Origin: Octopus vulgaris
Lineage: Eukaryota
Assembly: GCA_951406725.2 (NCBI GenBank)
Contig: OX597819.1
Span: forward strand, 122,574,001 to 122,638,000
Direction: 5' to 3'
DNA length: 64,000 nucleotides
In this document: one piece after another, positions 20,191 to 24,370 of the stretch
Layout of the letters: each line of letters starts with the position of its first letter
How positions within the stretch are numbered: position 1 is the first letter of the stretch
Program-made: the position numbers and the translations under genes
Notes under the pieces: generated by a model
What the model was told of the DNA's origin: nothing
Database searches by the model: none
What the model saw: only the letters and a program-made list of their open reading frames with translations

Positions 20191-23100
20191 TCTATGTTTG
20201 ACTTTTGCTTTATATTTGTACAAGTTGGCTCCAAGTCTCACCCAGAGACCTCAAGAGACAACAGGGTTGGAAGTTCATGTTGTTGTTATGCCTAGTGTGC
20301 CATATATTTGGGGGGTGGGGATGTTGTACTAATGAATGTCTAAAAAGAAAAAAAAAAAGGTTTTTTTTTTTTTTTTTTTTTAAACCGAAAATTATGTTTG
20401 TTTTAAACCTTGAGATTACATAGAGAGTATTTTGCGTAGGATATGAGCAGTTCCCATGAGCACTATCTTTTGAACTTCTGCCATTTTTGGGTTTCCTGGT
20501 ATCTGAGTTAGGTAGCTATCAGCCCCTTTTGCTATCATTCCCAGGGCACCTATGACAACAGGTATTGTTTTAGTCTTCAGCTTCCACATTTTGCTGATTT
20601 CTATTTCAAGATCTTTATATTTGCTCAGTTTTTGGTAGGTCTTGACAGATACGTTTATATCGATTGGGACAGTCATATCAATGAGGAGGCATGTTCTTTG
20701 TTTGAAGTTTTTCAATATGATGTCTGGCCTATTTGCATCTATCTTCCTGTCAGTTTGAATGGTGAAGTTCCAGAGGAGTGAGATGTGGTCATTTTCAAGC
20801 ACTGGGGTGGTTTGTGTTCCCACCAGTTTTTTTCATGGGGCAAATCCAGGTTTTTACAGATTACCCAGTGAATATATTGTGCAGCTCTATCGTGCCTGTT
20901 GAGATACTCTGTAGGCGCTAGAAGACTGCACTTGGAGACCACATGGTCAATGGTTTCATTTTGTTGCTTGCATACACGACACGTTGGACTGCTTCTGATC
21001 TTTAATATGTTGGCCTGGTAGTTTCTTGTTGGTAGGCATTGATCTTGAGCTGCTATGATAAACCCCTCTGTTTCAGATTTTAAGCCAGAGGCCATTAGCC
21101 ATTGATGGGTCAGGGCTTTGTCGATATCTGCATTATTCGCTCTCTTTGGGTATTTGCCATAGAGAGGTTTTTCTTGCCATTTATTATTCAGAATATCTAA
21201 GGCCGCAGTTTTGGCACGGGTTTTCATGCGCCTAGCTTTTTCTGTGCTTGTTTCTTGTATATCTATCTCTAATTCCGAAATTGGTTGTATTCGGAATTCA
21301 CTTAGATATTCCTTTGCCTGTTTTGTGACTGAGTATGATGCTTTCTTGTTTTCATGTTTTGAGACAAGTTTTAGCATCCAGTCCTCAGAGTTTTTCAGGT
21401 AGGTGTCTAGGCCAATTGTAGCAATCTTCATTGTTATTGCCAGTTGCAAAAGACCACGGCCTCCCTCTTTTCTTGGCAGATAGAGTCGTTCTGTATCTGC
21501 CTTAGGGTGGTGCATTCTATGCATTGTCAACAGTTTCCTTATTTTTCTGTCGAGCTGACATATTTCAGTAATTGACCAGTTAACAATATTGAAACTGTAA
21601 GTCACGACTGGTATAGCTAATGCATTGATTGCTTCGATCCTGTTTCTTGCATTCAGCTCTGTCTTGAGTATTGCTCTCACTCTTCGATAGCATTCTCTCC
21701 TGATCCTTTCCTTCATCTCTGAATGCCTTATTCCGTTCCCTTCAATTATCCCTAGGTACTTGTAGCTCTCCGCTGGGTCTAGTTCTTTTATGACATTCTG
21801 TTGGTCAAGGTTAACGTTAGATGTTTCTGTCATTTTTCCTTTGATAAAGGTAGCCTTTGCACATTTATCGAGGCCGAATTGCATTCTGATGTCGTCACTG
21901 AATTGTTTGACTATCGCTAGTAAGCCCTTGAGTTGTTGATCATTTTTTGCAAAAAGCTTTAAATCATCCATGTAAACGAGATGATTTATATTTTTATCAA
22001 ACATTTTATACCCGTACTGCGCGTCATTGAGCAGCTTTGAGAGAGGTATTAAGGATAAACAAAAGAGGAGTGGTGACAGTGAGTCACCCTGGAAAATGCC
22101 ACACGAAATTTTTACATCACCAGCATTTAGGGATTCACTGTCACTGTTCAGAGTTAGTGTGGTTCTCCATGATCTCATACTTACAGTCAAGAAGTTTCGC
22201 AGAGTTGGTGCTATCTTATACATTTCAAGGCATTTCCTAATCCAGCTATGTGGTAGGCTATCAAAAGCCTTTTTATAGTCTATCCAGGCTATTGATAAGT
22301 TTTTGTGTCGTTTGTGACAATCTTCTAAGATCATCTTATTGATGAGTAGTTGGTCTTTACAGCCGTAGGATCCACGTTTACATCCTTTCTGTTCATTAGG
22401 GAATATGCTGCTGTCTGTTAAAAAACTATAGGTATATTCCGTCAGGACAGATGTTAGTGTTTTGTACATAGTTGTTAAGCAAGTTATGGGTCTATAGTTT
22501 TTTGGTTCATTTGTTTCTTCACTTTTTGGAAGCAGGAATGTTAACCCATTAACTAGCCAAGGAGGCATCCTACTAGGGTGTTGCAAAACATCATTGTACA
22601 GTTCTGTTAGCAGTTCATGGCTCTCTGGGAAGGCATTCAGCCAGAAGTTAGGAATTTTATCCTTTCCTGGAGACTTCCATTTGCTTGACCTCCTGAGAGC
22701 AGATCTTATATCTTCTACCTTGACACCCTCCCACTTTTGCTCTTCTAAGGGGTCCAGTTCTGTAGATATTCTGTCAATCCAGGGGGCCTTTTCGTTGTGT
22801 GTTTTTTCTTCTGCCCAGATTTTATTCCAAAATCTCTGCACTTCTTCTTTTGATGGTACAGACCCTGCAGTAAACGCTGTTTTTCCTATCTTCCTGTAAA
22901 AATTCTTGGTGTTATTTTTGAACATGTTGTTGTCCTTGAAAAATCTAACACGCTTTTCATACCTCGCTATGCGGGCAGCTTTGGCAGATACCTTTTGTTT
23001 GATGGTTTCTATGGTGGCATCAATATCAAGTATAGTTTTCATATTGTATTTTTTCAGTAATTTTTGGGTTTTTGTAGGTTTGGTAATCTTGTGAGCCTTA

Positions 23101-24370
23101 AGGTTTTTCAAATATTCAATGTCAGATCTAAATATTTTAATTTGTTGTTGCAGACGCTCTTGCCAAGAAGGCTTTTTGTGGGACTGTTGCCGTTTTCTAA
23201 TCTTTACACCACATAGGATCGTTGAGATTTTCGCGGATGCATAGTATAGGTGGTTGAGGTTTGTGATATCAACATCATTAACTGAAATTATATCCTTAAG
23301 TGCAAGCCGGATTTTACCAATTATTTTCATGTTTTGGTTAGAGTTGCGGATTTTAGGAAGTGTATCACGCTCATCCATGCTGGTTTCTTTAATTTTCAGC
23401 CATTCAATCATGATTTGATTTTTTAGCTCATGTAGTTCTGTTGGGTCAATATTTGTGTGACTTTCTTTATCTATTTGATGCTCATCTGTCTTAGTGTTTA
23501 TGATTGGTTCAGGGCGTATTTCACTTTGCCTATCACTTATACTAACTCTTTCAATCCTCTCTTCGTTTTTATCCGCCCTGGGCTGGTCTATAATCATTTC
23601 CTCTGTATTATCTTCTCTAGCTGCAGCTTCGTTCATTTTATCCGATATTGCTTGTCTAACCTGATCAATCTCTACTTCAGTCAGTAATTTCTTTTTTATA
23701 ATGTTTCTTCTAACATTGGCAAGCTTGTTACTGTCTATGTAGGGTCTTACTTCAGGGTGTTTCTGTCTCCAGTTTAAGTATGCTTGTACAGTGCTAGACT
23801 TATCTGTGGGGAAATATATGGCATGGTAGAAGGCCTCAAGAACTTCTTTATTATCTTCCCTAGACCATTTTTCCTTCTTTTTCTTTTGATTATTTGGTGA
23901 TGAGCATGGATGGCCATCTGTTGGAATATTCCGGTTGTGGGGTTCGTCCAGCTCCTGTGTGTTGGGAAGATTTGATCCAGTAACTGATTTTTCAATCAGG
24001 ATTTGGTTCAATTTTCGGGTACGTGGTCTTTTGTAATCCGCGCAATGACCAATGCGGTTTATTGTTTGATTTGTTGACCTTGAAGCATGACGAGCATCCA
24101 TTCTTATATTAGGAGATGGATCTGTCAGTTTAGGGTTCACTACGTGTAAGCATTGCTCATAGCGCCGCTTCTTAAGACTAGCAGATCTATATTCGTCTGT
24201 ATTTTTTTGTTGATAGTTTTATCTCCGGACATTTTTTTTTTCTTTTTTTTTTTTTTTTTTTTTTTCTCCTTTCCTCCTCTTCCTTTCTTCAAGGCTTACT
24301 GTGTCTGTATTAGTTCGAAATAATGAGAATAAAATACGGAGAAAGGGAAAAAGACGGGATCTGTCAGTTA
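20191..24370 (-). mobile_element. Near full-length R4/Dong-clade non-LTR retrotransposon, family E
   Basis: ~230-bp 5'UTR, single RT-RLE ORF and ~225-bp 3'UTR between two long (TTA)n arrays, matching the known Dong target. Confidence 0.93.
20416..24140 (-). CDS. RT + CCHC + RLE polyprotein, split by one 1-nt frameshift at ~20804-20807
   Basis: KSPGKD, NYRPITCL, WIDYKKAFDS, GIFQGDSLSPLLF, YMDD (21963-21974), YKYLG, CRVC..HVVSKC, RHD; the RLE motif [20 protein letters not shown] lies in the 20416..20823 frame. The start codon is uncertain (GTG). Confidence 0.9.

What the first reader, a model, noticed from the sequence alone, without database searches (positions are those of the whole stretch)
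20191..24370. Near-intact microsatellite-targeting RT-RLE element, one base from a full ORF
Seen: the 1133-aa frame has no internal stop, and the RLE domain continues in another frame. Adding one C to the C4 run (plus-strand gggg 20804-20807) gives WWEHKPPPVLENDHISLLW, matching WYEHHPQPVVEGKDVTILW in family C and fusing ~1240 aa. Inference: this is a homopolymer sequencing error or a very recent lesion, so the family may be active. It is a candidate single-ORF, site-specific TPRT enzyme comparable to R2-based gene-insertion tools.
Basis: partly seen in the sequence, partly recalled or inferred. Interest (0 to 1): 0.7.

Follow-up and report, generated by a model that had tools for sequence, protein, structure and literature searches.

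The report
Broken copy of TAA-targeting Dong retrotransposon
This is one shortened copy, with two one-base reading-frame slips that are likely sequencing errors, of a young jumping gene with over a thousand near-identical copies that sit in TAA repeats; intact sister copies lie elsewhere in the genome, and this kind of element (Dong) is already known.

Summary
It is a 5'-truncated member of a young non-LTR retrotransposon family (full length about 4,960 nt; one 1,272-aa ORF with a helical N-terminal domain, RT, CCHC knuckle and PD-(D/E)xK nuclease). It is two bases, not one, from the family protein: besides C4 at 20804-20807 there is an A7 at 24202-24208 just after the conserved start codon, and about 690 nt of the 5' UTR are missing. 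Genome-wide the site reads C5 1,017 times, C4 51, C6 twice; C4 recurs on unrelated haplotypes, so it is probably a homopolymer consensus error (65%). Repair is unnecessary: 16 of 70 C5-type sisters examined have intact ORFs. 113 of 119 copies have (TAA)n at the 5' junction, wherever the copy is truncated. Architecture and target match Dong/R4, already reported with TAA targeting in molluscs and as recently active in octopus. Activity today and expression were not shown. One lead: full-length 5' ends show no detectable ribozyme (weak test) but a DPE-like motif at +28 and reiterated ends. The scan noted a Dong 3' hairpin elsewhere in this genome; it is present here.

The parts
24409..25083 (-). 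Upstream (TAA)n tract (about 225 units), target-side DNA at the 5' junction; its low end overlaps the blurred junction
   Evidence: TRF; junction alignment
24233..24450 (-). Remnant of the 5' UTR (last ~225 of 914 nt), with a 14-nt deletion near 24343 and a lengthened A run; the first ~45 nt are a mix of element GAT repeats and target TAA
   Evidence: Alignment to intact sister L046
24230..24232 (-). Family start codon (ATG1); N-terminus conserved in a 49%-identical family of the same genome
24202..24208 (-).
   Evidence: genome-wide 21 A7 vs 132 A8
20739..24218 (-). Long open frame (1,159 codons): N-terminal domain, RT, CCHC; ends 23 codons after the C4 run
23610..23876 (-). [quoted passage not shown]
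   Evidence: model pLDDT 91; weak fold matches Z 4.6-6.6; no ZnF pattern
21747..22526 (-). Reverse transcriptase core, YMDD at 21963-21974
   Evidence: Pfam RVT_1
20928..20981 (-). CCHC zinc knuckle (C1085, C1088, H1097, C1102 of the intact protein)
   Evidence: conserved in 56-57 of 57 aligned proteins
20804..20807 (-). C4 run, family reads C5: second -1 slip, between knuckle and nuclease core
20416..20805 (-). Restriction-like endonuclease in the second frame (PD1171...D1186...K1202..K1205), stop at 20416-20418
20192..20415 (-). 3' UTR (about 225 nt) with a short hairpin at about 20233-20252
19530..20191 (-). Downstream (TAA)n tract (about 221 units): tail and/or target
   Evidence: fixed junction register in 102 of 104 copies with an exact 3' end

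Best explanation
This is a 5'-truncated copy of a young, high-copy single-ORF RT-plus-nuclease retrotransposon family that sits in (TAA)n repeats, likely a Dong element of the R4 clade, and its two one-base slips are likely homopolymer errors of the assembly. Shown: architecture, copy number, intact sisters, orientation-fixed (TAA)n flanks at variable truncation points, fixed 3' junction. Inferred from R2: the protein binds its own RNA (probably through the 3' hairpin), the N-terminal helical domain helps find (TAA)n, the nuclease nicks the TTA strand, the RT copies the RNA from the freed 3' end, often stopping early (5' truncation) or re-copying the last bases of the template (5' reiterations). 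Each insertion leaves TAA on both sides, so further copies pile into the same tract. This copy, lacking the 5' end, would not be an autonomous source even if its ORF is whole in the animal.
For: Exact-match counts in G000: C5 1,017, C4 51, C6 2; A8 132, A7 21. Intact ORFs (>=1,265 aa with YMDD, CCHC and nuclease motif): 15 of 39 5'-anchored sisters and 1 of 31 position-sampled C5 copies, 9 of these 16 with a complete 5' end. The window ORF has 0 substitutions against the per-site majority of those 39 (median 7) yet two homopolymer deletions. C4 lies on several marker backgrounds at frequencies like C5 copies (in-frame 6-nt deletion: 7 of 18 young C4, 7 of 17 young position-sampled C5), is not clearly enriched in older copies (21 of 49 vs 11 of 31), and young C4 copies carry more other -1 deletions in runs of 4 or more (25 of 951 vs 23 of 4,131 opportunities, Fisher p 1.8e-7). 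Public contigs of 4 of 4 runs show the extra base at both runs. (TAA)>=4 within 150 nt of the 5' junction in 113 of 119 copies, opposite orientation in 2, control windows 11 of 75. Best PDB sequence and fold matches are R2 proteins. Distinct substitutions 62 synonymous vs 120 non-synonymous, ratio 0.50 per site, 9 vs 10 among shared ones (uncorrected). Dong/R4 description in PMC7998251, PMC3812793; recent Dong-R4 activity in octopus in PMC13282606.
Against: No read was tied to this locus, so error versus real slip is not decided: the contig lays were too coarse (a variant carried by about a third of young copies reached only 1% of summed depth). The deletion excess in C4 copies is partly driven by a few poor copies (L094, L110, L117, L121), and the 39 sisters were picked for likeness to the window. 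The copy has non-homopolymer differences (14-nt UTR deletion, altered junction), so real lesions do occur. Short-read polishing could have homogenised copies and make the family look younger. No named Dong or R4 protein was retrieved for a tree. The Myb/SANT call is weak (best Z 6.6, rmsd 7.1 over 87 residues; no Foldseek hit at E<=0.001). Empty target sites were not examined.
Confidence: 0.62

Rival explanations
1. Same element, but both slips are real: independent homopolymer slippage during reverse transcription or later replication made this copy dead on arrival.
For: Recurrence on many haplotypes and independence of age fit slippage at insertion as well as error; this RT visibly stutters at 5' junctions (reiterations in 15 of 115 junctions).
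Against: 5% to 19% loss per site at some 5-base runs (51 of 1,070; 8 of 51; 11 of 59) against 0.2% substitutions is very high for a viable element; 25:1 deletion bias; clustering of deletions in the same copies; no such one-base deletions listed in public contigs (weak).
Confidence: 0.3
2. C4 marks a defective sub-lineage that intact copies mobilise in trans.
For: 51 copies share the lesion; several share it together with the in-frame 6-nt deletion.
Against: C4 occurs on mutually exclusive young backgrounds and in the older subfamily, with marker frequencies like C5 copies.
Confidence: 0.04
3. The break is a programmed frameshift that yields RT-only and RT-nuclease forms.
For: The break falls between knuckle and nuclease core.
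Against: 95% of copies and all 57 aligned proteins are continuous here; a second young family is continuous too.
Confidence: 0.01
4. No true targeting: the TAA flanks are the element's own tail, duplicated or expanded after random insertion in A+T-rich DNA.
For: The 3' TAA starts in one fixed register (102 of 104), as a templated tail would; TAA tracts are common in this genome (control 11 of 75).
Against: TAA also abuts the 5' junction at dozens of different truncation points, in one orientation (113 of 119); distant relatives from metagenomes show the same flanks.
Confidence: 0.03

Closest known systems
Dong elements (R4 clade): B. mori Dong, DongAg, DongBg of the snail Biomphalaria, ostracod Dong1/2 (PMC3812793, PMC7998251; passages read)
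   Same: One ORF with RT and restriction-like nuclease, diverged N-terminal Myb/SANT-like domain without zinc fingers, (TAA)n target stated for most insects, molluscs and cnidarians.
   Different: B. mori Dong self-cleaves at its 5' end by an HDV-like ribozyme (PMC3774820); none was detected here (weak test). The 914-nt 5' UTR starts with a purine-rich AGAA/GGAA and has a DPE-like hexamer at +28.
Dong-R4 LINEs of octopus genomes (PMC13282606, PMC9115989, PMC8967140; passages read)
   Same: Five recently active Dong-R4 families with 1,129 near-full-length insertions were reported for O. vulgaris; a full-ORF Dong consensus for O. bimaculoides. This family fits that description and may be one of them.
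   Different: Sequences could not be compared (supplements not read); the passages seen do not describe targets, 5' ends or intact-copy counts. The O. bimaculoides Dong showed no sign of recent insertion polymorphism.
R2 retrotransposons (PDB 9nl3, 9dou, 9nl2, 8gh6; PRINT/STITCHR tools, PMC13586686, PMC13580325)
   Same: RT, CCHC knuckle and nuclease align over residues 505-1245 (E 1e-29); best fold matches (TM 0.55-0.58 by query); TPRT is the likely shared mechanism.
   Different: 16-18% identity; no N-terminal zinc fingers; target is a dispersed microsatellite with thousands of sites rather than one 28S rDNA site; most copies are 5'-truncated (median 2.2 kb of 5.0 kb).

Membership tests
Dong / R4 clade | Single ORF with RT followed by CCHC and restriction-like PD-(D/E)xK endonuclease | tested here: met
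   Intact sisters 1,270-1,276 aa; motifs conserved in 53-57 of 57 proteins; aligns to R2 nuclease
Dong / R4 clade | No N-terminal zinc finger | tested here: met
   No C2H2/CCHC pattern in residues 1-450; region is helical or disordered in the model
Dong / R4 clade | Diverged N-terminal Myb/SANT-like domain | tested here: inconclusive
   Confident four-helix model; Zeste, GT-1, SANT, TRF and R2 Myb chains among matches at Z 4.6-5.4, tied with unrelated helix-turn-helix folds; Pfam and Foldseek gave nothing significant
Dong / R4 clade | Insertion into (TAA)n in fixed orientation | tested here: met
   113 of 119 5' junctions, 2 opposite, control 11 of 75; 104 of 104 exact 3' ends followed by AAT. 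Empty sites not examined
Dong / R4 clade | RT phylogeny groups with named R4/Dong elements | not testable with these tools
   No named Dong or R4 sequence came back; no tree was built
Dong / R4 clade | 5' HDV-like self-cleaving ribozyme (shown for B. mori Dong and R4; not a strict clade criterion) | tested here: inconclusive
   No Rfam ribozyme hit and no descriptor hit, but both also missed nearly all relatives (0 of 18 and 1 of 38), so there is no working positive control
R2 clade | One to three N-terminal zinc fingers plus Myb | tested here: not met
   feature as stated in PMC13580325
R2 clade | Insertion at the 28S rDNA site | tested here: not met
   Flanks are (TAA)n on many contigs

The most novel reading that the evidence does not exclude
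The Dong families of this genome have dropped the 5' ribozyme and gained their own internal RNA polymerase II promoter (purine-rich start, DPE-like hexamer about 28 nt downstream), which freed them from host read-through and let them burst to thousands of copies; their RT re-copies the template 5' end several times and so writes new (GAA)n and short tandem repeats beside the TAA target, making the element a maker as well as a user of microsatellites. Basis: GGACGT at +28 to +33 if +1 is the A of AGAA; a similar hexamer within the first 35 nt of two other families (near +28 in one, off position in the other); 5' reiterations of 12 nt or more in 8 of 31 complete and 7 of 84 truncated junctions, (GAA)>=4 in 5 of 31 and 3 of 84 against 3 of 120 on the 3' side.
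Probability: 0.3. Interest if true: 0.55.

Novelty: new member of a known kind. Interest (0 to 1): 0.27.

Why it matters
The copy itself matters little. The family is a useful reagent: tens of near-identical intact ORFs of a Dong/R4 protein, a clade for which my PDB searches found no solved structure and one paper search found no biochemical assay, would let one test how a zinc-finger-less RT-RLE protein recognises a bare microsatellite. As a gene-insertion tool it is weaker than R2, because (TAA)n sites are many and dispersed. The case also warns that frameshifts in high-copy young repeats of this assembly are often likely artefacts, so intact-element counts are underestimates.

Tried and rejected
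Expression: no RNA holder listed on record; contigs of runs guessed to be RNA cover the ORF but could be DNA, and no silent control was laid, so nothing is concluded. Testing C4 in public data: only contigs were offered; no one-base deletion row appeared at the C run or at two other hot spots, but the threshold was too coarse to count. Ribozyme search by Rfam and by two home-made descriptors: negative, without a working positive control; the relaxed descriptor hit 28 of 30 shuffles. MFE folding of the 5' 146 nt (z 0.23) and of the 3' UTR (z -1.26) was unremarkable. Named Dong/R4 references: not found; the Atlas did not hold the query and gave only generic RT clusters for a homologue. Foldseek on the N-terminal domain: no match at E<=0.001. 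My first CCHC and nuclease regular expressions were mis-spaced and were corrected. A fourth family (window 53950-54510) was searched but not fetched. Papers PMC309301 and PMC4400214 were not held. Look-up of earlier findings by sequence gave nothing. Programmed frameshifting and a defective sub-lineage were considered and rejected (see rivals).

Full report
OBSERVATION. The minus strand holds a stop-free frame at 20739-24218 (1,159 codons). Pfam finds RVT_1 (E 8.6e-28) and, below its cut-off, zf-RVT. The nuclease continues in another frame to a stop at 20416-20418. The break is the C4 run at 20804-20807, between the CCHC knuckle and the PD...D...K..K core. Both flanks are (TAA)n tracts of about 220 units. 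All of this is confirmed.

THE FAMILY. The window lies on contig C6 of a 2.8-Gb assembly in 227 contigs. The host is likely an octopus; this rests on recalled repeat content and an earlier scan note, not on a test, and I did not determine which assembly it is. A search with the 3' kilobase gave 2,185 candidates and one with the 5' part 823, of which 40 each were scored. I fetched the 39 non-self 5' hits, the 50 other C4 places (49 loci) and 31 of the first 38 listed C5 places on contig C1 (three were already held, four were close tandem neighbours and were left out). A natural intact sister, L046, defines the unit: 4,958 nt, 914-nt 5' UTR, 1,272-aa ORF (P0002), 225-nt 3' UTR. Intact ORFs with YMDD, CCHC and nuclease motif: 15 of 39 and 1 of 31; 9 of these 16 also have the complete 5' end. 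Adding back the three already-held C1 copies gives 3 intact of 34 by position, so tens of intact copies are likely among about 1,070. Sisters differ from the per-site majority by a median of 7 substitutions in 3,819 nt, about 0.5 Myr at the rate quoted in PMC13282606; polishing could bias this young. Distinct substitutions are 62 synonymous and 120 non-synonymous (0.50 per site, uncorrected for transitions), 9 and 10 among those shared by three or more copies, which points to selection on source copies.

THIS COPY. It covers positions 688-4958 of the unit and has two one-base deletions in the ORF: A8 to A7 at 24202-24208 and C5 to C4 at 20804-20807, plus a 14-nt UTR deletion. The first ATG (24232) is likely the real start: a 49%-identical family in the same genome keeps the same N-terminus; the second Met is also conserved there, so a shorter 1,228-aa form cannot be excluded. 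So 'one base from a full ORF' holds only for the shorter form, and the copy lacks the 5' end in any case.

ERROR OR LESION. Exact counts are C5 1,017, C4 51, C6 2 and A8 132, A7 21. C4 appears on several young haplotypes and in an older subfamily, at marker frequencies like C5 copies, and is not clearly age-enriched, which rules against one defective lineage. Other five-base runs are deleted in 8 of 51 and 11 of 59 young copies, and young C4 copies carry more further deletions (25 of 951 vs 23 of 4,131; 7 of 825 in the position-sampled set alone), though a few poor copies drive part of this. The window ORF has no substitution against the majority but two homopolymer losses. This is the pattern expected of long-read consensus errors that short reads cannot polish inside near-identical repeats (established knowledge, not tested at this locus). 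Public data were contigs only: they show the family bases at both runs in 4 of 4 runs and list no C4 row, but a variant in about a third of young copies only just reached the 1% threshold there, so absence means little. I put error at about 65%, real slippage at about 30%.

TARGETING AND MECHANISM. (TAA) of four or more units lies within 150 nt of the 5' junction in 113 of 119 copies (29 of 31 in the position sample), in the opposite orientation in 2, and in 11 of 75 control windows; 102 of 104 exact 3' ends continue AATAATAAT (L127 left out). Because 5' truncation points vary over 4 kb, the upstream TAA comes from the target. The intact protein folds confidently (residues 100-1272, pLDDT 89) and its best sequence and fold matches are R2 proteins. 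The N-terminal four-helix domain (pLDDT 91) matches Myb/SANT-type and other helix-turn-helix folds only weakly. By analogy with R2 (inferred): nick on the TTA strand, priming on the RNA 3' end, frequent early stop, joining at the 5' side. A 3' hairpin is predicted 40-60 nt from the end here and in the neighbouring families, as an earlier scan note proposed. Five same-orientation Dong-like copies of different families are stacked at 16757-24450, each separated by TAA.

5' END. Complete copies start at one point, mostly preceded by AGAA or GGAA (20 of 29). B. mori Dong has a 5' HDV-like ribozyme (PMC3774820); I found none here, but Rfam and my descriptors also failed on relatives, so this is open. 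A GGACGT hexamer lies at +28 to +33 from the A of AGAA; PMC4748587 places the DPE at about +28 to +32 and lists it in insect non-LTR promoters; the exact six-letter consensus is from my recall. Two other families show similar purine-rich starts and a similar hexamer, one near +28, one not. Junctions often repeat the terminal bases, up to six times. These are leads, given as the novel case.

COMPARISON. PMC7998251 (passages) describes R4/Dong as RT plus restriction-like nuclease with a diverged Myb/SANT domain, no N-terminal zinc fingers, and (TAA)n targets in most insects, molluscs and cnidarians; PMC3812793 (passages) lists Dong, DongAg and DongBg as TAA-targeting. PMC13282606 (passages) reports five recently active Dong-R4 families with 1,129 insertions in O. 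vulgaris; PMC9115989 a full-ORF Dong in O. bimaculoides without evidence of recent activity; PMC8967140 Dong-R4 expansions in coleoids. PMC13580325 and PMC13586686 (passages) were used for R2 features and tools; PMC4640811 was seen only as a search listing. No supplements were read; curated repeat libraries there could show that this very family is already catalogued. Architecture and target tests are met; the phylogenetic test could not be run. It is not R2. Close relatives are widespread (1,515 proteins at E<=0.001), many with TAA flanks.

VERDICT. Real feature, known kind, unremarkable copy; the family is young and has intact members. Interest 0.27.

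Noticed in passing
window 16757-24450: Five Dong-like copies of different families stacked in one orientation, each separated by (TAA)n; more 3' fragments at 669-5465, 7897-8207, 37309-37545, 41962-42045, 53948-54508.
   Followed up: partly
window 17876-19172; L163, L165, L174, L176, L177: The neighbouring family is also very young (423-nt query 100% identical at several places, 1,109 candidates) and 5 of 39 fetched copies have a 1,301-aa ORF.
   Followed up: partly
L234, L237, L241, L242, L244, L245, L249, L250, L252, L255, L256, L257, L260, L262, L265 (5' ends): Fifteen metagenome relatives share a structured motif directly after (TAA)n, with a variable hairpin, a conserved stem-loop and apparent crossed pairings; no Rfam match in those scanned. 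Possibly an unusual self-cleaving ribozyme; covariation not tested.
   Followed up: partly
L210:84-168, L216, L221, L231 (5' ends): Four relatives begin with a tRNA-like head between the microsatellite and the ORF; only L210 passes Rfam and ARAGORN. Could be a polymerase III promoter or processing signal, or an adjacent SINE.
   Followed up: partly
ORF nt 2959 (window about 21275); L041, L042 and others: An in-frame 6-nt deletion marks about a third of young copies in G000 (14 of 38) but was seen in contigs of only 1 of 4 public runs: perhaps a population-specific burst, perhaps contig fragmentation.
   Followed up: no
window about 1-2460 and 4300-5900: A block of Dong fragments and microsatellites appears twice about 3.4 kb apart: local duplication or assembly artefact.
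   Followed up: no
window 9478-9849, 33468-33833, 39784-40269, 44789-45159, about 15660-15830: Tandem 184-nt units of a dispersed SINE-like repeat.
   Followed up: no
window 34950-37145 and 31183-31817: Very long (TGTA)n/(TATG)n arrays (555 and 160 units) that create spurious long ORFs.
   Followed up: no
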